Source: Harriotta raleighana
Taxonomy: Eukaryota
Direction: 5' to 3'
Assembly: GCA_050575255.1 (NCBI GenBank)
Contig: JBNZDD010013646.1
Coordinates: 2,433,229 to 2,497,228, forward strand
DNA length: 64,000 nucleotides
Shown here: positions 13,322-50,919 of the stretch, piece by piece
How positions within the stretch are numbered: the first letter of the stretch is position 1
Layout of the letters: every line of letters starts with the position of its first letter
Program-made: the position numbers and the translations under genes
The notes under the pieces: model-generated
What the model saw: only the letters and a program-made list of their open reading frames with translations
Database searches by the model: none
Told to the model about the DNA's origin: nothing

Positions 13322-14310
13322 ATAACAACAACAATAACAACAACAGTTGTACTCGTACGGAGCCTTTCACGTCAAGAAGACGTCCCAAGGAGCAGGACGG
13401 TCGCTGTTTCAAAACCGAGCTGGGGACAGGGGGGTGGGAGAGAAGAGGGAGATTTGGAATTGCCGATGGGACCATCGAAGAGGAGAGTCTTGAGGCGGGA
13501 CTTGAAGGAGCCAGGGAGGGGGTGAGGTGAAGGGTCTGTGGGATGGAGTTTCTGAGGTTTGGGGTCGGAGTGGCTGAAAGCTTGCCCACCAATGGTGCAG
13601 TGGGGGATGTGGAGCAAGCTAGAGCCTGCTGAGTGGAGGGGCTGGGCAGGTTGGTAAGGGGTTAGAAGGTCACAGATGTGTGGTGGGATGAGGTTGTGGA
13701 GGGCTTTAAATGTCAGGACCAGTATCTTGAATTGGATCCTCTGGATGATGCAGAGCCAATGGAGTTGGGCAAGGACAGGGAAGATGGGGTCACAGAGTTT
13801 GGAACAGTAGAGAACACGTGCCGCAGAGGTCTGGATTATCTGTAACCTCTGGACAGATGTTTTGTCAGGACTGTGGTCATCCTGAAGTTGAGGGTGGAGG
13901 CAGAGAGTTAGAATAGAATATCATCACATACATGTGGAAGTTGACCCCATGTTTATCCCTGATTTCACCAAAAAGGTGTTTGTAGTTATTGAAGAGGGAG
14001 GGACCAATTATGGAGCCCTGAGAAACGCCACACAAGACCATACGGGCTCTGAAGGAAAAATTATTTGTGACGACAAAGTGGAGACAGTGTGAATGGAATG
14101 ATCTGAAACAGTCAAGGACAGAACCATGAAGGTTGATGTCTGAGGAGGTGAAGGAGGATAGAATGGTCAATGGTGTTAACGCCAGCGAGAGGTCAAGGAG
14201 GACAAGGAGGTAGAGGGTGCCCTGATCATTGATAGAGAAAATATTATTTGTCACTTTGACCAAACCTGATTTTGTGCTGTGGGTGGCATAGAAACCTGAT
14301 TGGCACAGAA
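13322..14310 (-). mobile_element. L2 LINE fragment with internal deletion
   Basis: Minus-strand ORF contains QSGF..HST..LVKVTN, LVLLDLS, GVSQGSIIGP and GVNFHMY. (ttg)n tail at about 13322-13345. Confidence 0.85.
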
Positions 14311-15829
14311 TCCTGTGTAATGCTAAGAGTGAAGAACTGTAAATGCAATTACTTGTGCTCTCTCTCATACCCCTCTCCCATAGACACTTTATATCTAATT
14401 CGCTGTTGAAATTATGAATGATTCTGTCTATATAATACTTCTCTGGACAATCTGTGCCACACATACACCACTTTCAAATATATTACATTTAAATTGTTCA
14501 CCTTTCCTCTTTTGAGATTGGGAATGCGAGCCATAGTTGTAAACCTTTGACTACATCAAAGATGTTATTTGAGTCTAGCTTGGAGTCCATTAAACTTCAA
14601 TAACATCACCTATTAATCTTTTTTTCCCTGTGTAAACATTCTTATTTTCTCCAGACTCAGCGTAGTTCAGATGCTTAATCCTACAAGTCAATTTGGTCAT
14701 CCGTCACTGAACACTCTCCAGCACCAGGAAGATGTTCCCAGTTAATTCCAGAACCGTATACCAGTTACAGCTTTGCACAAAATTACTGTTGCTTCCTATC
14801 TTGCGTTATCATGCCTTTTCTGTCCAGTTAAAAAACAGAAAGTTTGTTTCCTTTACATGTCACTGTAAAAAAAAAATCCATGGCAAAAGCATATGAAAGA
14901 CCAACTTTTGCTGTTAGGAATGATTCCTAAATTTCCTTTTATTATGGAAAGTTATGCTGAATTTATAATATAAAAAACAATTAAAATAACAATTGCCAAA
15001 GACAGTAATTACATTTTCGAATGGATTTTTAAAATCAGAACTGAGATGATCTTCACTGATTAACCATGGCTTTTCACTCACTTATTCCAGTGTCAGGCTG
15101 TTTTGTCATTGACTACCAGTATGTTTTATCCAGTCAGTCAAACCAATTGCTTTGTTCTTGAAAAAACAGGTGGAAAAAATAGTTTCACAACCTTTAGAGT
15201 TCAAGATAACAGTTATTAGCAGTGTCCCAAAAACTGCATTGCTGAAAATTCAATAGTGCCGTGTATTGTAAATGCAGATTTTATTTATATTAATGACAAC
15301 CCAAACCTTAACAAACATAGACCCACTTAAATTTATAGCATGGAAGGAAGCTTGTTAGTCCATTGTGCCTCTGAAATTAGTTATGTGCCCATATTCTTTA
15401 TACAGTATTTCTGCTTTCCAACTATTCATCCAATTCACTCTTAAAAACTTGGATTCTGTCTGAACCATATATCCAAGTAGAATATTCCAATGAGGAGATA
15501 TCCATACTACTGTAATCAAAATCCGCAATGCTATCAAAAGCAAATGTATTTTAAGAATTTGCAATACTCCCTTTCGTTTCCCTATTAGATTCCATAATGA
15601 ACTTGGTAAGAATGTGCTTTCAAACTCAAAATACGATCACTACATTTTAAAGTATACAATGAAGTGCTTTGGCTGTCCTACTGATTTGAAAGACACTATA
15701 TTAAATGCAGATTTTTTTTTATTACATTACTATTAGATTTTGAGAGATTTTCAAGAGGCAGATTATTTTGGTCAACTTCTCTGTGGCATTTAGTAAAGAT
15801 TTACTGTGAGCATTCTAATATTTCTGAAA

Positions 15830-19739: not shown

Positions 19740-21645
19740 TCGGGTGAGAATAGGGTCACAGAGTTTGGAACGGTAGAGGACATGGGCCGCAGAGTTCTGG
19801 ATTATTTGCAGCCTGTGCAGGGAGGAATTGGGAGGCTAACAAGCAGAGCATTTGCATAGTTGAGCGGGGATGTAATGAAGGAGTGTCTGAGGGTTTCAGC
19901 GGCTTGGGGTGAGGTAATAGCGGAATCGGGCAATATTGCGGAGGTGATAAANATAAGGAGTTTGGTGTGGGTAAACACTCGTTTTCTGAGAAACCTGGTA
20001 AAGGTATTGGCTCTAGGATACACTTAGGTAGGGTAGTAAATAGTGAGGAGGACTGTAACCAACTGCAAGCAGACATACACAGAATGGTGGAATGGGCTGA
20101 CATGTTGCAGATGGATTGCAATGTGGATCAGTGTGAGGTCATACACTTAGGTAGGAAAAGTGATAGGAGGTAATATAGGCTTGGTAGCTCAATCTGAACG
20201 TACAGAGAGATTTAGGTGTTCAAGTAAGCGAATCATTAAAGGTAGCAGGGCAGGTAGATAAGGCAGTAAAAAAGGCATTTGGTGTACTGAGCTTTATTAG
20301 TAGGGGCANNNNNNNNNNNNNNNNNNNNNNNNNNNNNNNNNNNNNNNNNNNNNNNNNNNNNNNNNNNNNNNNNNNNNNNNNNNNNNNNNNNNNNNNNNNN
20401 NNNNNNNNNNNNNNNNNNNNNNNNNNNNNNNNNNNNNNNNNNNNNNNNNNNNNNNNNNNNNNNNNNNNNNNNNNNNNNNNNNNNNNNNNNNNNNNNNNNN
20501 NNNNNNNNNNNNNNNNNNNNNNNNNNNTTTTACTGTAATAGCTTTACTCACCTCTGCAGAGTAGCGCTAGTCTCCTCTACCTAGAACCTGGTAGCAGAAT
20601 GGTTGTTCAAGGTCTGGTACTTTCAAAAGATCCAAGAGGACATAGGACCGACAATCAAGCACCCTACTGTGTCATCTGCTCAGTAAAAAACAGCTCCAAT
20701 TGATTCCACACTAACATTTTACAATTGACACCATCATCAACAGTTTCCTTGAAGCACCGCAGTATATGGATGTATAAATAGTTTGTGGAAATGCCATTGC
20801 TGCGGGGCCTGAGAATATGTTTTTTCATCAGGATTTATATGCATAGCAATGTTCCCAGACAAAATCAAATGCAGAACAGCCAGATGCATGACAGTGTTGC
20901 ACTGTCAAACATTTTGCTTAAGNGAATGATCTGCCTGAAAGGGTAGTGAGGTCCGATTCGATAGCAGCTTTTAAGAGAAAACTGGATAGATATCTGGGGA
21001 AGACGGGTTTGCAGGGTTATGGGGAGAAAGCTGGTGATTGGGGTTAATAAAAGTGACATTGCTCTGTCAAAGAGCCGGCACAGACTCGATGGGCCGAATG
21101 GCCTCCTTCTGTGCTGTAACCTTCTATGATTCTATGAAGAGATTGAGTGTGTAACCATGGAAGTTGTTGCTGCCAATGCCTGATGCACTGGTATGAGCCA
21201 ATCAGTATTGCCTCTGACTTGTTGACATTCAACCTCAGAAAGTTACCTCTCATCTAGGTCTTGATGTCTGACAGACAGTTTGTCAGGACAGTGGTAGTCC
21301 TGGAGTCGACGGTAGAGACAGAGAANCTTCTATGATTCTATGAAGAGATTGAGTGTGTAACCATGGAAGTTGTTGCTGCCAATGCCTGATGCACTGGTAT
21401 GAGCCAATCAGTATTGCCTCTGACTTGTTGACATTCAACCTCAGAAAGTTACCTCTCATCTAGGTCTTGATGTCTGACAGACAGTTTGTCAGGACAGTGG
21501 TAGTCCTGGAGTCGACGGTAGAGACAGAGAAATAGAGTTGGATGTCATCCGCATACATGTGGAAGTTAACCCCATGTCTGCGGATGATGTCACTAAATGG
21601 GAGCATGGAGATGTTGAAAAGTAAACGGGTAAGGACAGAGCCCTT
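19740..21645 (-). mobile_element. L2 fragment (minus) split by a plus-strand CR1 insertion (about 19990-21135) that spans an assembly gap
   Basis: L2 IIRRHGVNFHMYADDIQLY at 21460-21669 and LNYANALL at about 19850. CR1 LQADIHRMVEWAD..CEVIHLG and tail ttctatgattctatg at 21122-21136. Confidence 0.75.
20309..20527. other. Assembly gap
   Basis: Run of N. Confidence 1.
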
Positions 21646-22914
21646 AAATATGTTGGGAAGACATCTCAAACTGCTTCAATGGATATACTGTACTGTAAAG
21701 TGCAGTGATTACCATAGATAATTTGCCCACAGCAATATGTCACAGATAGCTTTGAAGTGAATGGTCACTTTTTTACAAGAAAAGCTCCTTCTAGTTCATA
21801 ATGCAGGTCCATAAATACCTTCTGCCTCTTCCCTTCTTAATGGGGTCTAAATTGTGGGGCTGTAACTTCTATCTCAATTTTGATTTACATGAGTTTTGGG
21901 GTTCGAATGGTTAAAAGTGACAACTCCCGAATTCATGATTTCCTGCTCTTTTTCCAATCCCTGCAAAGTAGTTCTCAGTGACATGAATTTGTACTTTGCT
22001 ATCGTATACTTCCCTACTTCAGTCTTTTCTTCCTCTGGTAATCTACACACAGTTTAAGTTCCAACTTTGGTGGGTCATTAAACAGTCTATTTTGATTTAT
22101 ATATTATTTTTTTCAATTCAACCTGGATAGCAAACCCTGTTTTACGGGTATTGGATCCTCACCTAGATTTTTCCTCTGAGAAAATATGAAAATCCTTATT
22201 CTCTATTGCAATATTTCCCTTCTGATATTGCCTCATTTTGATTCATTTACTTTCAGAGAATTTAGCCCCATGACTGCAATAATTTAGCAATCTGATCAAG
22301 TTTTCGTTGATCATGTCTCCTATCTTAATTATATTATGCAAAATAGCTATGATAAATACAGTAGATATCTTCTAAATTACATAGACCAGTGAATAGTTAT
22401 AGTTATACCTGACCACTGCTTGACCATAGTACAACTGAGAGATGAAATTCAATATATTCACTGCAAAACGGGAAAAACTACAAATAAACACTAAACCTGA
22501 GACTCTTAGAGCAAGACAACATTTAAAAAACAAGTTTTACTTGTGAAAGTAATTTCATTCTATAATGCAGCAGAGAAATTCCTTGAGGGATATTGGTGAC
22601 AAAAGGCAGTGCTAGAAAAGACAAGTGATGATCCTTCATCATTATTATTATGAGATTCTGCTAAAATACGCTACAGCAGTGATAACCTTGATTTGTCTGT
22701 TGCAATAAATGGCTCCATTACTTTGATTAAGCACCTTAGCCTCCAGCCTTGGCACTTAATGAATGCAGGGACCATTTACTGACAGACGGAAGTTATATGT
22801 TAAATATACCCGCAGCATTTGAGACACTAGGTGCAGCCTGAGAGAAAAGCAGCACAGAGAGGGAATGTGAAATAATACAGCTACAATCATCTTATTCCTA
22901 TGAGTTAAAACAGC

Positions 22915-29687: not shown

Positions 29688-32190
29688 GTATCTATTTTCA
29701 TAGACACCTGTAAAGAACTGAAGTGGCAAGTGTGAATTTTATTTTAATTAATATTCAAAGGTGTAGGTTAATTTTGAAGAAGAAAAATGCAAAGTGCAAT
29801 AATTAGCACGGGCAAGGTGATAATTATTAGGCTGGTATCCTGTGCACCATCACTGAAACATCACACATAAGAAACAACATGTAACGTGCGGTGGGAGGAA
29901 ATAAATATAAGACTTTAATATAAATCGAAAATTAAAGACTGATTTAGATTGTAATTTAGGGGAGTGTGATAATTGACAAATATCATTTTGGTACAGCCCA
30001 ACACATATAAAAATGCATAAACTCATGACTCACTGTTTCAAAGAGCTGGATTTCTTGTTCTGAAAGGTTTCAGTTTCGGCTTCACCCTCGTAGTCCAAGT
30101 GTGTAGTAATGTCAAAGATAAAGATCCGCTTCTAATCCAAGTCCTGCAGAGTGAATCATATGAAATTAGGAAATATAGACCCATCTTTGGGATGTTACAA
30201 GATGACAGTCAATGAACTATGGACAGAGGTGTCAGGTAGCTCACTTAACTAAAGGAGAGTATCTACTTACTTGGATCAAGTTTCCTTTTGAATGAATTAA
30301 CAATTAAAATAAAATACAACAGTATGAGACATCTTCGTTTTGATATTTCATTGTGGATTTAAATATTAAAGTATGCTATGCTACAACTGCATCCAAAATA
30401 TTAATAAAACATTTGATATAATTGTAATGAGTAGAAAACAAGTTAATAGTTCATATTGGAATTTGTAGATATGTTTATACATTCATAAAATAAAAGTCAC
30501 AATTCCCCATTGCATTCACACTCACTTTACACAAATGAAGACCTATATCTTGTTTTCTTTATGCCAGAAACAGATTCATGGGACTCAGAATGATATGATT
30601 ACCCAAGATCCCATCTGCCTGTTCCCATGAATGTCTCATGAAACTACTTGAAAAGAGAAGTTTCTCCTTGCATCTGGTCAAAAATCCTCCAATTCAAATA
30701 TGTTTTGATCTTCTTCTGGGAAAATTGCTGCAATGTTTGCCACATTAACAGTTACCACATTTAATATAATTAAAGTAATGTACTTTGTGATGCTTCAGAG
30801 TGATAAAGAACAATAAAAATTTCTATACATTAGTCTATCCTGTCCATGGAAGTGGAACTATAATCTGAGTCGAAGATCAATGAGTATGATTACTCACAAG
30901 AACATTATGTATGTGAATCACTTGATGTTCATTTCAATAATCTTTTCCAGCTAATAATCCTATTCTTTCTTAATGGTTGCTGGATGCCAAAACACGGATT
31001 CCATGGCAACATTAAGCAGTTTAGAGACAAAACATTCATAAATCCTCAACAGGTAATAAAGTATGCCAGTCTACCATTGCATTCAAAATATTAATTAAAA
31101 AATTAATTTAATTATCAAGCATAGAAAGGCAAGATAACAGTCCATATTATATTTTTGCTGTAATACTTTCCCATTACCTTTTCATGTAAGGGCTCGTGAA
31201 AACTAGAACTTCTTTCAAAGCATTGTTTTGCCTCTTACTGAAGCAATTCTTTCCTGAATGTATTGCTTGAGACATCCAGTAGTGAATACATCAGTTCTGG
31301 TAAACCAACTGGCAGAACCAATGATGATTATAAAAGCAAAGGAGCAATGGAGAACATTTCTCTCCATCCAGGGATAATTTATTTAACTTGAAGTAAAAAA
31401 ACATACAATACATGTCATTGGTACAATATCCAGGAATAAATGGCCCTTAACATTTATGGTTAAGCTTGCCTTTTCCTATGTTTGTAGATAAAGGCCCACT
31501 TCATTTAAAAATTGACATGTGATTATTTTTAGTCCTTGGAAATAATTTTGATGACAGAAAACAATACTATTCTCATAACATTGAACAATAGGTTTCAGTG
31601 ATTCCTGCATATTTATTTCACAAGTTCAAAGTGTGCCATTTGTATCAAAGATGAATTTAATGATTCATTATTGCTGCGGGCATAAGGAAATTATTATTTG
31701 ATTAATAAATGGAACATCACATCTCAAAGCTTCTCTGTTGCTTATCTTTGCGCCATTATTTCCCTTTTATGTTTCTACAAACATTTATCTCTTTAATTTT
31801 CTGGATGTGTATGGTTTATACACTGATTACTGATCAAAGCAATCCTGACAGTTGCATTCTCAGATGCTATAGATTCAAAGGATGCAAGATCAGTCTATCT
31901 GTTGCAGCATTTATCCTGTAGTTCTGTTGGTTATGCAGTTGCTTGAATGGGAAACAATAAAAGTAGGTGCATATTCTATTGTTGCAGTAGAACATGCCAA
32001 TGGGATATCAATTATAGGATCACAGAATCTTACGGCCCAAAAGGAGGCCATTCGACCCATCGAGTCTGTGCGGCTCTTTGAAAAGAGCAACTCAATTCCA
32101 TTCCCCAGCTCCCCATAACCATACAAACTCATCCTCCCCAAATAAATCTCTACCTCTCTTTTAAAAGTTGCTAGCGAATCGACCTCCACC

Positions 32191-32932
32191 ACCTTTTCTT
32201 CAGCTCAATGTCCGGAAAACCGAGGTCCTCCTGATTGGCTCGCGTCAGCGCCTCCGCAACTCAGGTGCTGACAGCATCAGCATCCAAGGCTGCACTCTCC
32301 ACCTCGCAAAGCCAGTCAGGAACCTAGGTGTTCTATTTGACCNNNNNNNNNNNNNNNNNNNNNNNNNNNNNNNNNNNNNNNNNNNNNNNNNNNNNNNNNN
32401 NNNNNNNNNNNNNNNNNNNNNNNNNNNNNNNNNNNNNNNNNNNNNNNNNNNNNNNNNNNNNNNNNNNNNNNNNNNNNNNNNNNNNNNNNNNNNNNNNNNN
32501 NNNNNNNNNNNNNNNNNNNNNNNNNNNNNNNNNNNNNNNNNNNNNNNNNNNNNNNNNNNNNNNNNNNNNNNNNNNNNNNNNNNNNNNNNNNNNNNNNNNN
32601 NNNNNNNNNNNNNNNNNNNNNNNNNNNNNNNNNNNNNNNNNNNNNNNNNNNNNNNNNNNNNNNNNNNNNNNNNNNNNNNNNNNNNNNNNNNNNNNNNNNN
32701 NNNNNNNNNNNNNNNNNNNNNNNNNNNNNNNNNNNNNNNNNNNNNNNNNNNNNNNNNNNNNNNNNNNNNNNNNNNNNNNNNNNNNNNNNNNNNNNNNNNN
32801 NNNNNNNNNNNNNNNNNNNNNNNNNNNNNNNNNNNNNNNNNNNNNNNNNNNNNCAGCGCCTTGGGATGTCCTCCTGACGTGAAACGCGCTCTATAAGTGT
32901 AATTTTGTTGTTGTTGTTGTTGTTGTTGTTGT
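32191..32932 (+). mobile_element. Young L2 insertion (mostly N-gap) nested in CR1
   Basis: FLQLNVRKTEVLLIG..VRNLGVLFD before the gap. Intact tail cagcgccttgggatgtcctcctgacgtgaaacgcgctctataagtgtaatt(ttg)n after it. Confidence 0.85.
32343..32853. other. Assembly gap
   Basis: Run of N. Confidence 1.
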
Positions 32933-34167
32933 TTCCAGGCAATGCATTCCAGATTCAAACAACTCACTGAGTGAAAACATTTATTCTCACCTCCCCTCTG
33001 CTTCTTTTAGAAACTATTTTAAATCTGTGACCTCGGGTCACTGACACACCCACCAGTGGAAGCAGTTTTTCCCTGTTTACCCTATTGAATCCCCTCATAA
33101 TCTTGAAAACCTCTATTAGGTCTCCTCGTAACCTTCTCTGCTTGAGTGAGAATAAACCAAACCTCTAGTCTTTCCTCATAACTGAAGTCCGTCATTCCTG
33201 GTACCATCCTGGTAAATCTCATCTGCACCCTTTCCAATGCCTTAACACCCTTCCTAAAATGTGATGACCAGAATTGAACACAGTACTCTAGCTGAGGCCT
33301 AACCTGTGAATGACACCCAGATACTGAAATAACAAATAACTTGTCTCCAAACAGTTTGAGGCACCAATAAGCAAGACAAAACAGTATGCTGGGCAATATT
33401 GACAAATGAGTTGAATTTAGCTCCACAAGAGTAATGCTTCAGCTGCTCATGTGAGTTTGTGCTTGGAGAAATCCATAGATTTGCGGGCACTATGGAATAA
33501 GAGCTCTGCCTAACCTCCGGAGAAAGTAAAGTACTAGAGGCATGAAATACAGCATAATGAATAACATATAAAATAGGGCTTTCAAGTTTGAAAAGTTGAT
33601 TCTCAAAGGAGATCTTCTAAAGGGATGTAATATCACTGATGGGATAGAAAAACTAAAGGCAGAATACTGTAACTTTTTTCAGTTAGATCAATGGAACAGT
33701 GCAGGGCAATTTTAGGAGAAACACTAGGAATTTATTGATTATTGATTGAAAGAGATGGTAATCAATAATTACAACAGGTTACCGAGAAGAGTGTGTGAGG
33801 CCTGAAGACTGAATATATTTATGATGCAGTTTGATCCCTTAATGATAGAGTAGATATTCTGATAATATGGGATCAAATGGACAGAATAGTCTTTTCCATC
33901 CAAACCTCTCATTATTTCTGAAAGAACAAAACCTTTTAAATGAGCCCTTCACACCCACATATTGCTTTTGTGGCTAAATCAGTGCTGGCTTAAAATATGC
34001 ACATCGGCATCTCAGTGATCGGAGTACTCACCTCGCAAGCGAAAGAGCTGGATATGATTCCCGGCAAGCCAAAATGTGGGACACTGTTGTGCGCAATAGG
34101 CTGCCACATTTTCCGCACAAAATATACAGTCAATTCATTTTACCATATATTCTGTGATGCGCTTTGA

Positions 34168-43952: not shown

Positions 43953-45399
43953 TATTATGATAGAGTTGAGTGAAAGCATTCAGCATCTTGAATACCTTAA
44001 GTAGATCTCACCTGAACCTTCCCTTCTCCTTCAGAATATTCCCAGTTTCCATATCTTTTGCAGTAATTCATTCTCTAACTCAGGTTATCAGCCTAATTAC
44101 TCATCACAATAATAATAACACCAATAATATTAACAATACTTGCATTTGACATAGTCCTTTATAACATCCCTCTCTAATCAGAGGATATCTGCAATGGAAT
44201 AAGGTGCCAGCACAATACACAGTGCTTCATTATGGACCAAATTATTTATCTGTACAAGTTCAATTTCACTTTCAATGAATTTAGCTCTTTCTTTTTAGCT
44301 TGTATTTTTACTGTGAAGATGTTTGCCATGTTTTAAAGTTACACGAGATATAAAAAAGCAAGTTATTCCTTTCTTTTAGTACAGTCCAATATCTTGTTTG
44401 CTTATTTTACTGCAGTCTGGATGAGTACCAAGGTTGACCAAAATTGAATGCTATGACATAGTGGGTAAGTAGCAAAGAGGAGTTACCAAGCATGACAGTG
44501 TGAGGGAGATGAATTAATACACATAGTTGAAGTGGCACAATCACTGAAGTGCTCTGTGTTAATGAACATATCTCTTCTGATAATAATTCAGTTTCAGATT
44601 TGCAGATTAATGACTAAAGTAACCCTCTCCACAATCAGGTTCAGCGATGTCTGCAAACCAGTCGTTCCCCATCATCACTTACCATTTAAATTCAAAGCAT
44701 CCACATGAATTAGTCAAAAGTACAATGGGATATTAAAGTTAATCGTTATTCTCCGTGAATTCTTTTTTGAAAGACAACAATAATAACATTGTGCTGACTT
44801 GCTGTGTTGAATGTTTACACAGGTAATCACAAACTCAACCTGTTTCTTGAGGTTTTAATCAAACATTTGTTGTAACTGAGAATCTGCATTAATTTAGATT
44901 TCCTGTAGATGTATGAAGAATGTAGATTTCCAAGCATGTTGCAGGGGGTTCAGTTAGTGTGCAAATAGTTCTCATCCATGATCTAGATAGGCCTTGGTAT
45001 CCACACATTTTTGCAGTTTATATTGTGTTCGATGTGATGAGATTGAGGGCATTCTGAACTGTCATGAATTTTCAGGATTTTCAGCTAAAGAAAGCTTTAT
45101 AACTGATTGTCGATTCACAAGATTTTTCAGTGTTGGATGCTGAAGTGAAGAACAAATTGCCGACACCCTTTAAATCAGGGAATACAAGATACTGCATCAA
45201 TTTAAAATAGTAAGCAAACTGGCAAATAGGGAAGTTCATTTATTTTTGCACAAAGTAGATAGGATATTAAATGTCTGTAAATAATTATGATGTGTACAAA
45301 TTGAACCCTGTAATGTTATTTGTCATGAAATGAGCTGTAGGAATGGAAATAGTGGCAATGCTCTCATGCATTTCATGTTGAGATGTGGTGCTCACCAAC

Positions 45400-45945
45400 C
45401 TCAACAATTTGCATTAATATAGTGCCCTCCACACCGGGCAGCATCTCAGACTGTTTCACAATGTTGGAGCCCTAGGCCAAGCCTCGAGGGAGAGGTCGAC
45501 TGTAAGCACAGTCAAAGAGAAAGTTCTTCATGCATGACCTGAAGATGGTAAAGGAGAAGGCAAGATGAAGGGGTTGAGGGAAGGATTTCCAAAGTTTTGG
45601 GGTGTTGTGGCTGAAAACACGGCCACCGGTGGTGCAGTAAAGGATTTGGGGAAAGAAGCTTGAGGTCGGACCCATTGGATTGGAGGCAGCAGGTACTGTT
45701 GTGAAGAAAGAGGAGGTTAGAGAGGTGCAGAGGAGTGGAGAGTTTTAAACACTAGAATGAGCATCTTGAAGTCAATGGGCTCTGTGAATGGGAGCCAGTG
45801 CAGTTTGGCAAGAACAATGGAGTGCAATTTGGTTTGGGTGAGAATGGTATGAGCTGACTTTTGTGGATGGTGGAGGAAGGGAGACAGGTGAGGAATGCAT
45901 TAGAATAGTGCAGGCAAGAGGTGACAAAGATATGGGGGATTGAAT
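45400..45945 (-). mobile_element. Old L2 3' fragment
   Basis: Minus-strand FVTSCLHYSNAFL and LWKSFP..FRSCMKNFLF. Confidence 0.7.
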
Positions 45946-46987
45946 CTAAATTGCCCATGAATTCTGAGTGTTTTAATGAGGCTCCCAACAGTTTCTAGCC
46001 ACCCAATGAGAGCTCAAATGGCTTCAAGGTGATATGCTTGCCAATGAATGTTAGAGTCAAGACAGCCTTCATTGATGGTCTCATTTTCTGGTTTCCGAAC
46101 CAGGTGCATATTACTGCAGGGCACTGCTGATGAGAGCTCAGACAGCCTGGCAGCGCAGTATGTCTTGGAAGGGCAGGTTCGTCACTATTTTACCTACTCA
46201 GCATCTGTTAACCCAGAAAAACAAAGTCCTAACAAATAGGATGATACTAGCTGGACATGGCTTCAGTTGGCAATGCTTGTAAAATAGTCCTACCAATGAC
46301 AAGCTGTACAGTTTTACCTGGTTAAACCCCAGCAGTCCTCAAACCTACACTCTGGAATAGCCAACTCGTGGCTCTTACCAAATTTGTTGTGACTGCACCT
46401 AATATTGTTTGGCATTAGGTAAGCAGGGCGAGAGTTAGAATTTCATTCTAGATACAAGAATTTCTATTAGTAAGTGAGATAAATGTAACGTTTAGTCATA
46501 GCGATGAGTTTCTGAATCATCAACTGGCTGACCAAAAACAAAGTGACTTAGATCTCTGAAAGCTTTGCATCTGACCTCTAATACATAGTCACCAGCAACA
46601 TTAAATAAAGAAATCTGACCTTGAAGAGAAACATGTCTATCCATTTGGCCAAACACCCGAAAAGGTGTAATTACAACTCTTCAGAAGCATTGTGTGAAAA
46701 AGTATTTCAAAAGCAATCACTTTGTGAGCTGCAGCAGACAGCTGAGAGGGGTCTGTGATGGGAATGACATGGTGAAATCCCCATGCTACGTATCTGTATG
46801 TAACTTATAACTTGAAATGTGCCAAGTTGGTTAGTGGGATAGAAAAAAGAACCAATGATCACTACTTTCATATTGCAAAGCAATTAGACAAGAGAGCACA
46901 GGTTCAGGGCAATTTATACCAGAAAGTATTTCTTCATGGAGAAGGTAATTAATAGTTGGATTGTGTTACCAGGAGGGATTGTTTAGG

Positions 46988-47260
46988 CAAGGATTTCCCA
47001 AACGTTCTGGGCTCAAGGCCCCAAGGATATTAGGCATCTTGACTGAGGACCTCAAGTTGGGCTGTGCAGGCTTCCTGTGGGGCAATGAGGCATAGCTGCC
47101 ATAGGAGAGGAGTGAAATTATTCTTGGGGACGGAGGGCTAACTAAGACAGGGCTGGTTGGCCTACAGACTTCTCAGTCAAATTAACAGGCAAAGCCTTTA
47201 AGACAGACAAAGCCTTTGCACATCCTGTCAGTAGCCCCACCCAAGCCCAATTTGGGAACA
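46988..47260. mobile_element. Possible decayed hAT/Charlie-like MITE inside a CR1 fragment
   Basis: Imperfect termini caaggatttcccaaac ... aatttgggaaca. No clean 8-bp TSD is visible. Confidence 0.3.
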
Positions 47261-47329
47261 AAGATAGTGTGCTCATTTAAGCAACAAAGTAATAGGAAGA
47301 TAATAGATGGAGTATACATATACACACTT

Positions 47330-47660
47330 AGGGTGCGGCATAGATTCATTAGGTTAGTTCCTGGGATGAGGGGACTGACCTATGAGGATAGGTTGAATAA
47401 ACTAGGGCTGTATTCTTTAGAGTACAGAAGAATTAAGGGGGATCTTATACAAACATAAAAGAGTTGGATAAAGTAGACACTGAGGGACTGTTTCCCCTGG
47501 TAGGAGAATCTATAACCAGGGGTCACAGTCTTAAAATTAAGGGTCAGCCTTTCAGAACATAGTTGAGGAAACATTTCTTCACCTAGAGGGTAGTGAATTA
47601 GAAGGCTGTGGATGCTCAGTCCTTGAACGTTTTCAATGACTGAGAGATTTTTTAAGATTT
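47330..47660 (+). mobile_element. CR1-type LINE fragment just upstream of the NIF3L1 copy
   Basis: RFIRLVPGMRGLTYEDRLNKLGLYSLEYRRIKGDLIQT, then TRGHSLK. Confidence 0.85.
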
Positions 47661-47873
47661 TGATTTAAGCTATTACACCCCACAATTCAAGAAACCAATA
47701 TATAAAAAGAGATAAAGGCATCTGAAGAGATATCTACTGTATATTCTAATCACAAAATAACATGTTTTTGTTGTTATCCACCAGCAATCCCATAATCTTT
47801 GCATCTTTGTCACAGAGAGAGTGACACACAGAGACACAGACAGTCACAGAGAGAGTGGGAGAGACAGACACAC

Positions 47874-48966
47874 ATGGCCAGTCAGGGGAGGGGGTGAGGG
47901 GTGGGGGGGAGGTGAGTGTGGATGAGTTGCTGGGGATCCTAAGCTCCCTGTTCCCCCATCACTTGACCGAGAGCTGGGACAATGTGGGGGTGCTGTGCCG
48001 GCCCTCGGTGGGGAGGGGGGTGGTGGGGGCTGTGCTGCTGTGTCTGGACCTAACCCTGGCTGTGCTGCGGGAGGGGGTGCGGGAGGAGGTGGGGGCTCTG
48101 GTGGTGTATCACCCTCCTGTGTTCTACCACCTGAGGAGCCTGGGGGGGGGGCGGAGAGGACACACAGGCTGTTCGTGGCCACCATCGAGGTCAAGATGGC
48201 CGTCTTCTCCCCCCACACAGCGGCCGACAGCCTCCCCTGGGGGATCAACACCTGGCTCAGCCAGGCCCCAGGCCCCTGCCACACTCGCCCTCTCTCTCTG
48301 GCTCAGGCTGGGGGCTCCATGACTCACCGTGTGGAGCTCACTATGGACAGAGAGAGAGAGACTGTGCTGGACAGAGAGAGAGAGACTGTCCTGGACAGAC
48401 TGAGGAACATCCCGGGGGTTAAACTTACTCACTTTCCCGTCAGTGAAGGGATAAGACTATCTATGACCTGTGGACCTAAATCTTTGATTGAAATGGTGAG
48501 AATTCTCTCAGAATTTGAGGGATTTGCACAAAAAATGGAGATTACAGCTTTAGAAAAGTCACTGTTGTTGGACACAGAAATGGGGAGGTACTGTACATTG
48601 ACAGAACCCACAACGATTTCTACATTAGTGAAAAGAGTGAAAAGTTTCCTTCACTTAAATCATCTCCGTCTTGCTCTTGGGGACGGACACACCTTGGACT
48701 CTCTAATCTGTACAGTTGGTGTCTGTGCTGGATCCGGAGGCAGTTTACTGAAGGAAGTGGAGGCTGACTTATACCTGACCGGTGAGATGTCTCATCACTC
48801 TGTGCTGGATGCCTGTGCGTTTGGTCGCAGTGTAATTCTGTGTAATTCTGGCAACAGTGAACGAGGCTTTCTGACTGTACTACAGGCGAAACTCACACAG
48901 TTACTGAAGGGGAAAGTCCATGTGTTAGTCTCTCAGGCCGATCAACAGCAGATTGTGATCGTCTAA
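47874..48966 (+). CDS. NIF3L1: NIF3-like protein 1 (NGG1-interacting factor 3 / DUF34 family), intronless copy. Retrogene or young processed pseudogene, with a frameshift in the G-run at 48142-48151.
   Basis: Two overlapping ORFs together give the whole NIF3L1 sequence in order. ORF 47855-48322 supplies ESWDNVGVL...LCLDLT...YHPPVF. ORF 47995-48966 supplies FSPHTAADSLPWGINTWL, THRVEL, LEKSLLLDTEMGRYCTL, LRLALGDGHTLDS, VCAGSGGSLL, EADLYLTGEMSHHSVLDA and ERGFL. The frame switch falls in the G10 run. There are no introns. Stop TAA is at 48964-48966. The nearest ATG (47874) is out of frame by one base across another G-run. Confidence 0.9.
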
Positions 48967-49058
48967 AATCCTCCCCATCCCCTCTACCCTCCCTTCCCTC
49001 CAGTCTCCCTTCGCCTCCTTCCAGTCTCCCCTCTTTCCCCCCTCCCTACAACACTACA

Positions 49059-49064
49059 ATTAAA
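49059..49064 (+). promoter_or_regulatory. Candidate polyadenylation signal ATTAAA for the NIF3L1 copy
   Basis: ATTAAA lies about 90 nt after the stop codon and is followed by GT-rich sequence (ctgtgtctgttgtcg) near 49100. Confidence 0.4.
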
Positions 49065-49184
49065 GACGTCTTTTGTCTAGACCTCCCACCACTATCTCGT
49101 CTGTGTCTGTTGTCGCTCTACCTCTGTTCCTACACACACCCCCCCCACCCCCCCCCCCCACCTCCCTCTAACCTGTGTGTCTAA

Positions 49185-49365
49185 TCTAGACTGAGACTAA
49201 CTGAGAGAAACTGACTGAGACTAACAGACTGAGTCACAGACTGACAGAGAGACTGAGAATGAGAGAGAAAGACTAAGAGTGGGAGAGAGACTGACTGAGA
49301 GAGAGAAAGAGAGACTAAGAGTGAGAGAGACAGAGACAAGAGAGAAACTGAAAGTGAGACCGAGT
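49185..49365 (+). repeat. Degenerate gact/gaga low-complexity repeat
   Basis: Runs of gactgagaga and gactaa. Similar gaca/gaga runs lie at 47816-47872. Confidence 0.8.
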
Positions 49366-50919
49366 GACGCAGAATGGGTTCATTTGGGTTTATTTGTGTG
49401 TGTTTGTGGGACACTGCTGTGCGCAATTTGGCTGCCACATTTCGCCCCCAAATATACACCTGGTTTTCCTGCTCTCTTCCCTCTACCTCGACCACTCCCC
49501 TTACCCTCTTTCCCCCTTTCATCCCTGGCCCCCTCACTTCCATGACTGTTTGTGGGACACTGCTGTGTGCAATTTAGCTGCCACGTTTTGCCCACAAATA
49601 TACAGTCAATTTTTCCTACTTTCCTTCCCCTGAGCCCTCCTCCCCTACTTGACTGTACAGCGCCTTGGGACGTCCTCCCGACATGAAAGGCGCTATATAA
49701 ATAAAATTTTGATTTGATTTTGATTTAAATTAATCCTTCCAGTTAATAACACATTTCACATTGGGATAAGGTCTCAAACTGCTGCGCAGAATTTTGCTGT
49801 AAAGTATAGTGACTATGCATTTGTCAGCTGATCAAGCAACAAAGGGATAATTATAATTCCTGCATTTGTCAAGATGTTGATCATCTCACCTACAGTGTCA
49901 AGACATCTCAACGCACTTCATAGAATATACTAAAAAGTGAATTGACTGCACATTTTGTGGATGAAATTCTCTAGCCAATTCCACACAGAAGTGTTCCATA
50001 AACAGTCATGGGTTGAAGTGGCAATTTTTCTTACAGAAGGGATTATTACCCATGGTAATGTGATCCACCAATTTCTTGCTTGTGAGGCAAATGCTCCAAT
50101 TACTAACCTATAGAGCTCAACAAAATCAATTGAGATTCTTTGTAAATACTTTTGAGATGTATAAACTTCAATTTGCCACTCTGCCTGCCCCCTTTAAGTG
50201 GACGAGATGTTACTCGTGCACATTTGAATTCAGCTGCAACACCAGAATGATATTGATCATCTAACATCACATCTTTGACTGTGAGCCATAAAAAATGTCT
50301 AGGATGTATCAAAGTAGCAACTCCTGATATATAGAGCAGCTAGGCATGCATAACCTCTAGCAAGAAGAGTGGCATGCTCTGCACCTTATAGCATGTGCCA
50401 GAATTGACCTTTCTGCCAAACGTAGTGTCAAATGATAATTGTTACTGATAACACCTGAAACAAACTTTCAAAATGTGAGCAGAATCTCTCCTCCACCCCT
50501 TTCCCTCATCTACATGTTGTTTAGGCAATAGCAGAGCAGGACATGTAAATTTAATGGCCAATTAGTTATTTTAATTGTCTGTAAAGCAACTACTAATTAT
50601 GTGGTTGATGTCTGCCCAGCAGCATCCTGTTGAATGTGCTTCTCCTACAGCCCAGCCGTTTAACACTCTCTGTGCATGTTACAGCTAGGATAATTAATGA
50701 CTAACCATCAACATTATAAACTCACCTCAAACATGCAGACATCCTGCAGCCTAAATCTATAGGGCACCGTTAACATATCGCAAAGCCTTTGTTACAACAT
50801 GATACTGGTGAGAACTTCTTGCCCCAAAAGGGTTGCTCTCACTCTAAGATTAAATTGCTTGTTCTGAGTTCCCAGGAGCACTTACTATTTATTTAGAAGG
50901 TATGAAAGTACCATTCCCT

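What the first reader, a model, noticed from the sequence alone, without database searches (positions are those of the whole stretch)
47874..48966. Intronless NIF3L1 copy, stop-free and broken only at G homopolymers: retrogene or young pseudogene?
Seen: a complete NIF3/DUF34 coding region of about 1.05 kb with no introns and no stop in the stitched frame. The frame changes inside G10 at 48142-48151; G8 or G11 would restore it, and G8 matches the vertebrate spacing between YHPP and RL as I recall it. One extra G in the run at 47885-47888 would also put ATG 47874 in frame (MASQGEGVRGGGEVSVDE...). The codon aligning with the usual Met is GTG (47912). Known: vertebrate NIF3L1 is multi-exon. Inference: this is a retroposed copy. 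Strong protein divergence without stops suggests it was under selection for some time, and the frameshifts may be homopolymer sequencing errors.
Basis: partly seen in the sequence, partly recalled or inferred. Interest (0 to 1): 0.75.

Follow-up and report, generated by a model that had tools for sequence, protein, structure and literature searches.

The report
Young processed NIF3L1 copy, odd parent
This is an intron-free copy of the NIF3L1 gene in a cartilaginous fish, most likely a recent, dead mRNA-derived copy; its strongly altered protein appears to be inherited from a near-identical intron-bearing parent gene, which likely lost a conserved metal-binding histidine.

Summary
The intronless NIF3L1 coding region is real (Pfam DUF34 in two frames, switch at G10, 48142-48151). 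Contigs of an independent run are 94.5-99.3% identical to it. Two of their ends fall exactly on vertebrate intron positions (48558|9, 48697|8; chance about 5e-4), so a near-identical intron-bearing gene probably exists. The copy is therefore young, and its 45% identity to shark NIF3L1 is mostly inherited, not a sign of selection on the copy. The G4 run is confirmed without a gap in that run, so ATG 47874 stays out of frame. The conserved Met is GTG, and no in-frame ATG precedes 48196 even if G10 were wrong. Three residues conserved in relatives are altered in the window but intact in sister sequences. G10 itself was not covered well enough to test. Verdict: young processed pseudogene (0.7), one of several near-identical copies. 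The lead worth keeping is the parent: 26 of 104 near-invariant positions differ, including the HxxxE metal-site histidine, and most of these changes are shared with the sister sequences.

The parts
47805..47911 (+). GA/CA-rich 5' leader of the copy; holds the out-of-frame ATG 47874 and the G4 run 47885-47888. The 5' boundary near 47805 is approximate.
   Evidence: GC rises from 0.41 (44800-47800) to 0.64 (47805-48420); contig 47700-47906 joins flank and leader with 1 difference and no gap
47912..48141 (+). N-terminal NIF3L1 coding part (frame 2), starting at GTG where homologues have Met; keeps WDNVG and YHPP; no ATG in frame
48142..48151 (+). G10 run, frameshift (+2 against the spacing of homologues)
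   Evidence: not resolved by reads
48151..48966 (+). C-terminal coding part (frame 1) to TAA; keeps HTAxD, AGSG, LTGEMSHH and the Glu-Arg of HxxxER; His of HxxxE is Ser (48847)
48344..48399 (+). 24-bp tandem duplication, in frame, in the variable central insert
   Evidence: period 24, 2.3 copies, 96% match
48557..48560 (+). Fused exon junction 48558|48559 (LEK|S); contig ends of run X1 at 48558 and 48557
   Evidence: table 8; partial protein P0209 begins exactly at the matching residue
48696..48699 (+). Fused exon junction 48697|48698; contig ends of run X1 at 48697 and 48697
   Evidence: table 8; P0121 and P0259 skip the 28 residues that start here
48831..48850 (+). 10-bp tandem repeat lying where the conserved E-H-S codons should be (C-N-S-G-N-S-E instead of C-E-H-S-N-S/T-E)
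48967..49400 (+). Likely 3' untranslated part: CT-rich then GA-rich, ATTAAA at 49059, no poly(A) tract
   Evidence: one X1 contig of depth 20.6 matches 48820-49130 and runs 270 letters further
49401..49727 (+). Two pieces of a short interspersed repeat core plus a LINE-type 3' tail ending in (TTTGA)n, same strand as the copy; may or may not be part of the insertion
   Evidence: self-BLAST: core at 7 or more other places in the window, tail at 4; stem-loop z -2.9; the label L2/SINE is recalled, not from a call

Best explanation
The locus is an intron-free NIF3L1 copy that was most likely made recently from a spliced mRNA of a near-identical intron-bearing gene and is probably a non-coding processed pseudogene. 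Shown: no introns, a frameshift in the assembled sequence, no in-frame ATG before 48196, near-identical sister sequences. Inferred: a LINE reverse transcriptase copied the parent mRNA into a gene-poor, repeat-rich region; the copy then picked up slippage in a G run that once encoded Gly-Gly (G8 to G10) and point changes at conserved residues. Its large distance from other shark NIF3L1 proteins arose earlier, in the parent lineage, where the frame was kept open by selection.
For: (1) X1 contig ends at 48558/48557 and 48697/48697 coincide with intron positions and overlap by 2 and 1 bases, as expected where a GT..AG intron path leaves and rejoins (junction letters); chance of 2 or more exact hits among 6-8 ends 3e-4 to 6e-4, or about 0.01 with +-2 tolerance. 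(2) Depth accounting at 48697 fits a junction path of 3.5 plus a second path of 4.3 under a contig of 8.1, against 4.2 in the flank (one of several possible solutions). (3) The 7 longer contigs inside the copy are 94.5-99.3% identical to the window. (4) At 3 of 16 listed coding differences the other letter gives the conserved residue: Val 48244, Leu 48269, Gly 48578; the Gly is in 207 of 207 full-length homologues and in 16 of 25 raw reads. (5) G4 confirmed by a gap-free contig; no in-frame ATG in 47825-48195. (6) Simulated neutral decay to 65% identity left 2% of 300 replicates stop-free, decay to 95% left 54%: a young copy needs no selection to be stop-free. (7) Pooled raw depth 17.8 in the 3' half against 3.6 in the flank, and contig depth rising 4 to 21 towards the 3' end, fit several, partly 5'-truncated copies.
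Against: G10 was not spanned, so the central frameshift is unconfirmed. No intron sequence was seen directly: most joints and loose ends were hidden behind repeat-derived reads (158 and 363 rows not shown). Listed contigs run unbroken across the other three expected junctions (48271|2, 48443|4, 48781|2). Differences in 48370-48818 are 4 synonymous of 5, more than a neutral copy plus constrained parent predicts (P 0.07-0.13; 6 of 7 with two more listed sites, P 0.014-0.033, though 4 differences of that contig are unlisted). No poly(A) tract and no target-site duplication over 7 bp. The flank depth rests on a handful of reads, and the low depth of the 5' half may be GC bias.
Confidence: 0.7

Rival explanations
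1. Young but functional retrogene: G10 is an assembly error or a rare allele, and translation starts at GTG 47912.
For: No stop in the stitched frame; synonymous excess among differences in the 3' half; G10 unresolved.
Against: G4 confirmed, so no ATG is in frame; replacements at conserved Gly, Val and Leu that sister sequences do not carry; single-N gaps inside tandem duplicates suggest a short-read assembly, where such run-length errors are less usual (inference).
Confidence: 0.12
2. This is the species' only NIF3L1, an old intronless replacement; the other letters in the reads are alleles.
For: No closer protein than 47% identity in two searches with the full C-terminal part; a long branch of 2.2 inside the chondrichthyan group; three junctions spanned without a break.
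Against: Exact contig ends at two intron positions; depth 2-5 times the flank; 2.6-5.5% differences in the 5' contigs against 0.5% in the flank.
Confidence: 0.07
3. The intron-bearing parent is itself a decaying duplicate or pseudogene, and a conventional NIF3L1 exists elsewhere or the gene is being lost in this lineage.
For: 26 of 104 near-invariant residues differ, most shared with the sister contigs; a gene under 80% DNA identity would not have been laid.
Against: So much divergence with no stop is unlikely without selection (2% at 65% identity); differences between copies lean synonymous. This rival is compatible with the window copy being a processed pseudogene.
Confidence: 0.11

Closest known systems
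Chondrichthyan NIF3L1 (Heptranchias P0001, Heterodontus P0005, Pristiophorus P0121, Scyliorhinus P0122, Mustelus P0123; unnamed P0482/P0484)
   Same: DUF34/NIF3 domain over the whole length; shares the 4-residue deletion in the central insert that these proteins have against coelacanth and gibbon; groups with them (SH-aLRT 99; 90/97).
   Different: Only 42-46% identical, while the five named sharks are 65-79% identical to each other; no introns; frameshift; GTG for Met; no in-frame N-terminal extension; HxxxE His and C-terminal D-P-L lost.
Vertebrate processed pseudogenes (retrocopies)
   Same: Exon junctions fused, near-identical parent inferred, frame broken. PMC13320880 (passages seen) reports that about 70-98% of retrocopies outside mammals, birds and turtles are species-specific and that about 45-90% lack an intact ORF.
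   Different: No poly(A) tract or target-site duplication found; a LINE-type tail lies 700 bp after the stop instead.
DUF34/NIF3 family (E. coli YbgI, B. cereus YqfO; PDB 2gx8, 2fyw hit)
   Same: YH, HxxxxD and Dxxx(T/S)G(E/D) motifs named in PMC8469502 (passages seen) are present.
   Different: The C-terminal HxxxE motif, called a likely contributor to the metal pocket in that paper, has Ser for His.

Membership tests
Processed retrocopy | Continuous alignment across exon-exon junctions of a multi-exon parent | tested here: met
   No intron at five positions; three are backed directly by fetched proteins (P0209, P0121, P0259), one roughly (P0072), one only by recalled human exon sizes
Processed retrocopy | Intron-bearing parent elsewhere in the genome | tested here: inconclusive
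   Indirect but strong: contig ends at two junctions. No genome held; intron letters not seen
Processed retrocopy | 3' poly(A) tract and target-site duplication | tested here: not met
   No run of 5 or more A in 48967-49900; best flanking repeat 7 bp. These marks are typical of L1-made copies, not required of all (recalled)
Processed pseudogene | Disabled reading frame | tested here: inconclusive
   No in-frame ATG, G4 confirmed by a contig; G10 frameshift present in the assembly but not covered by reads
Functional retrogene | Expression from the locus | not testable with these tools
   No RNA holder listed
Functional retrogene | Purifying selection on the copy's own branch | tested here: inconclusive
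   9 of 16 listed coding differences synonymous; 3 replacements at conserved residues lie on the window's side; differences cannot be assigned to branches in general
DUF34/NIF3 | Pfam PF01784 above the curated cut-off | tested here: met
   47.8 and 100 bits against 23.4
DUF34/NIF3 | YH, HxxxxD and DxxxTGE metal-pocket motifs | tested here: met
   YHPP, HTAAD(S), DLYLTGE present
DUF34/NIF3 | C-terminal HxxxE(R) motif | tested here: not met
   Ser at 48847 where 207 of 207 full-length homologues have His
Ordinary NIF3L1 orthologue | Conserved synteny | tested here: inconclusive
   No other gene found: 0 of 212 scanned ORFs (of 232 of 62 aa or more) reach a Pfam cut-off; short exons can be missed

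The most novel reading that the evidence does not exclude
In this cartilaginous-fish lineage the working, intron-bearing NIF3L1 has lost the HxxxE metal ligand and some twenty other near-invariant residues yet stays under purifying selection: a natural metal-site variant of a near-universal protein of unknown function. Its mRNA has spawned a small family of retrocopies, perhaps by carrying a LINE-type 3' tail that a tail-specific reverse transcriptase recognises.
Probability: 0.2. Interest if true: 0.55.

Novelty: new member of a known kind. Interest (0 to 1): 0.3.

Why it matters
The copy itself is ordinary: young processed pseudogenes are the commonest kind of retrocopy in fishes. It matters as a pointer. 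NIF3L1 is conserved from bacteria to humans and its function is unsettled (PMC8469502 proposes a metal chaperone or insertase). A vertebrate lineage whose gene dropped a metal-pocket histidine that 207 of 207 homologues keep would give a natural test of whether the two-metal site is needed, or would mark a rare loss of this gene in progress.

Tried and rejected
No whole genome is held, so no tblastn for the parent. No RNA holder listed; says nothing on expression. Protein searches found neither the parent nor a close relative: best 47% among 657 hits, best 47% among the top cluster representatives, no fragment above 62% among 120 listed short hits. Reads showing a base left out at 47885 were set aside: each has 6 or more other differences and they pile up on the GA-rich repeat. 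The first conservation count mixed in 120 short fragments and was redone on 207 full-length proteins. Pfam scan of the other ORFs gave 6 weak hits below cut-off, two of them reverse transcriptase. Rfam: nothing in 46500-50500. Earlier findings: none by place or sequence. Paper searches: NIF3L1+retrogene 0; NIF3L1+pseudogene 6 listed, one opened and it concerns NIF3L1BP1, a different gene; NIF3L1+shark 3 listed, none relevant by title and abstract start; NIF3+DUF34+mutant+active site from 2022, 0. Folding was not run: only half of the protein is an unbroken frame, and a model would not separate the rivals. LINE-tail capture is kept as a lead only: the tail folds but such repeats are dense in the window, so adjacency may be chance.

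Full report
Observation. The sequence is as described. A frame-2 ORF (47825-48322) and a frame-1 ORF (47926-48966) match Pfam DUF34_NIF3 positions 2-75 and 81-253. The switch lies in G10 at 48142-48151; ATG 47874 is in the third frame and ends after seven codons. GTG 47912 aligns with the Met of 203 of 207 full-length homologues. G8 gives the spacing of the homologues, and two unnamed chondrichthyan-type proteins read L-G-G-E-S-W there, so the run probably began as Gly-Gly codons.

Identity. The best homologue is Heptranchias NIF3L1 at 47% over the C-terminal part; no cluster representative is closer. The stitched protein falls among cartilaginous fishes on an end branch of 2.2 changes per column, against a median of 0.26-0.33 (the exact place of so long a branch is unsure) and shares their 4-residue deletion. 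Of 104 columns conserved in at least 95% of 207 homologues it differs at 26; the median homologue differs at 0 and the worst at 8. The changes include the His of the C-terminal HxxxE motif, named in PMC8469502 (passages seen) as a likely contributor to the metal pocket; a 10-bp tandem repeat at 48831-48850 stands in place of the E-H-S codons.

Intron positions. I recalled the human exon sizes and checked them on fetched proteins. P0209 is a partial protein that begins at the residue matching 48559. P0121 and P0259 skip the 28 residues matching 48698-48781. P0072 has an insertion near the site matching 48443|4. The site at 48271|2 is recalled only. The window has no intron at any of them.

Reads. 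Four of seven listed runs were laid: contigs of X1 and raw reads of X5-X7 (one sample, 4.65 Gb read). The eight longest X1 contigs cover 47700-47906, 47906-47996, 47967-48139, 48214-48367, 48370-48558, 48557-48697, 48697-48818 and 48820-49130, at depths 4.2, 5, 5.8, 3.2, 7.9, 8.1, 12.6 and 20.6. Two breaks fall exactly on intron positions, with overlaps of 2 and 1 bases, which is what a branch into a GT..AG intron would leave given the letters at those junctions. The chance of two or more exact hits is 3e-4 to 6e-4. Extra depth around 48697 fits a junction-spanning path of 3.5 and a second path of 4.3; other solutions exist. X1 is only guessed to be DNA; if it were RNA the breaks would be alternative splicing, which also needs an intron-bearing, near-identical gene. 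Against this: three other junctions are spanned without a break, and no intron letters were shown.

Age and origin of the divergence. The seven contigs inside the copy are 94.5-99.3% identical to the window. They hold too few differences to carry the consensus residues: 47967-48139 has 2 unlisted differences where 13 would be needed; 48557-48818 has all 3 differences listed and keeps 3 of 4 losses; 48820-49130 has 4 unlisted where 8 would be needed. So most of the 26 changes are shared with the sister sequences. The His itself needs two changes and cannot be fully excluded, since 65 of 105 difference rows were hidden, but no such row is among the 40 shown at a well-covered place. Three listed differences go the other way: the sister letter gives the conserved Val (48244), Leu (48269) and Gly (48578; 16 of 25 raw reads), so the window carries its own damage. 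A simulation shows why the missing stops prove little: neutral decay to 95% identity left 54% of 300 replicates stop-free, decay to 65% only 2%. The long divergence happened under selection, but in the parent.

The two breaks. The contig over 47700-47906 has one substitution and no gap, so G4 is real in an independent sample and ATG 47874 is out of frame. No ATG is in frame before 48196 whatever the length of the G run; a product from there would lack the N-terminal 95 residues with YHPP. G10 was not tested: listed contigs stop at 48139 and resume at 48214, and pooled raw depth there is 1.6.

Copy number and context. Pooled raw depth is 17.8 over 48420-48947 and 3.6 over the flank; contig depth rises towards the 3' end. 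Both fit several copies, some 5'-truncated, but the flank figure rests on few reads. The 5' half is 64% GC (GC3 0.83-0.93), the 3' half 44%, the flanks 39-41%. No poly(A) tract or target-site duplication was found. A short-repeat core and a LINE-type tail follow at 49401-49727 on the same strand. PMC3747384 (passages seen) describes LINEs that need a specific 3' tail, so tail capture is a possible route, untested here. No other gene was found in the window (0 of 212 ORFs above a Pfam cut-off), so synteny could not be tested.

One result against the pseudogene reading: differences in the 3' half lean synonymous (4 of 5 in the fully listed stretch), somewhat more than a neutral copy and a constrained parent predict (P 0.07-0.13). 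Numbers are small and the contigs may mix copies.

Verdict. A young processed copy, probably a pseudogene (0.7); functional retrogene 0.12; sole orthologue 0.07; degenerate parent 0.11. Young, species-specific, broken retrocopies are the usual case in fishes (PMC13320880, passages seen; its supplementary tables were not read). No paper on a NIF3L1 retrocopy or on shark NIF3L1 turned up, which cover only the open library. The copy is ordinary; the unusual parent is the lead. Interest 0.3.

Noticed in passing
window 10954, 11307, 21326, 27761, 51423: Single-N gaps sit inside near-perfect two-copy tandem repeats of 92-206 bp: probably scaffolding artefacts of a short-read assembly.
   Followed up: partly
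window 32165-32933: LINE fragment (end of the reverse-transcriptase ORF, N gap, 3' tail, (TTG)n); its tail is 85% identical to 49658-49711. Clade label L2 recalled.
   Followed up: partly
window 13880-14473 and 21463-21675 (- strand): Weak RVT_1 hits below the Pfam cut-off: decayed LINE pieces.
   Followed up: no
window 47909-47917: The GTG that replaces the Met lies in AG|GTGAGT, a match to the splice-donor consensus (recalled); may be chance or may let the leader splice onward.
   Followed up: no
proteins P0328, P0477-P0484: Unnamed, transcript-sized chondrichthyan-type NIF3L1 on a long branch (about 0.95-1.0) that keeps EHSNSE but shares E-to-R, loss of the Asn of TND and L-G-G with the window: NIF3L1 evolves fast in more than one such lineage.
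   Followed up: partly
Only five named chondrichthyans appear among the listed NIF3L1 hits, three on contigs under 1 Mb; no named ray, carpet shark or chimaera in the top 120 of either search. The gene may be hard to assemble or divergent there.
   Followed up: no
window 48010-48015: One X1 contig has an in-frame 3-base deletion at 48013 and a cluster of changes at 48007-48025 relative to the window: a second version of the 5' half.
   Followed up: partly
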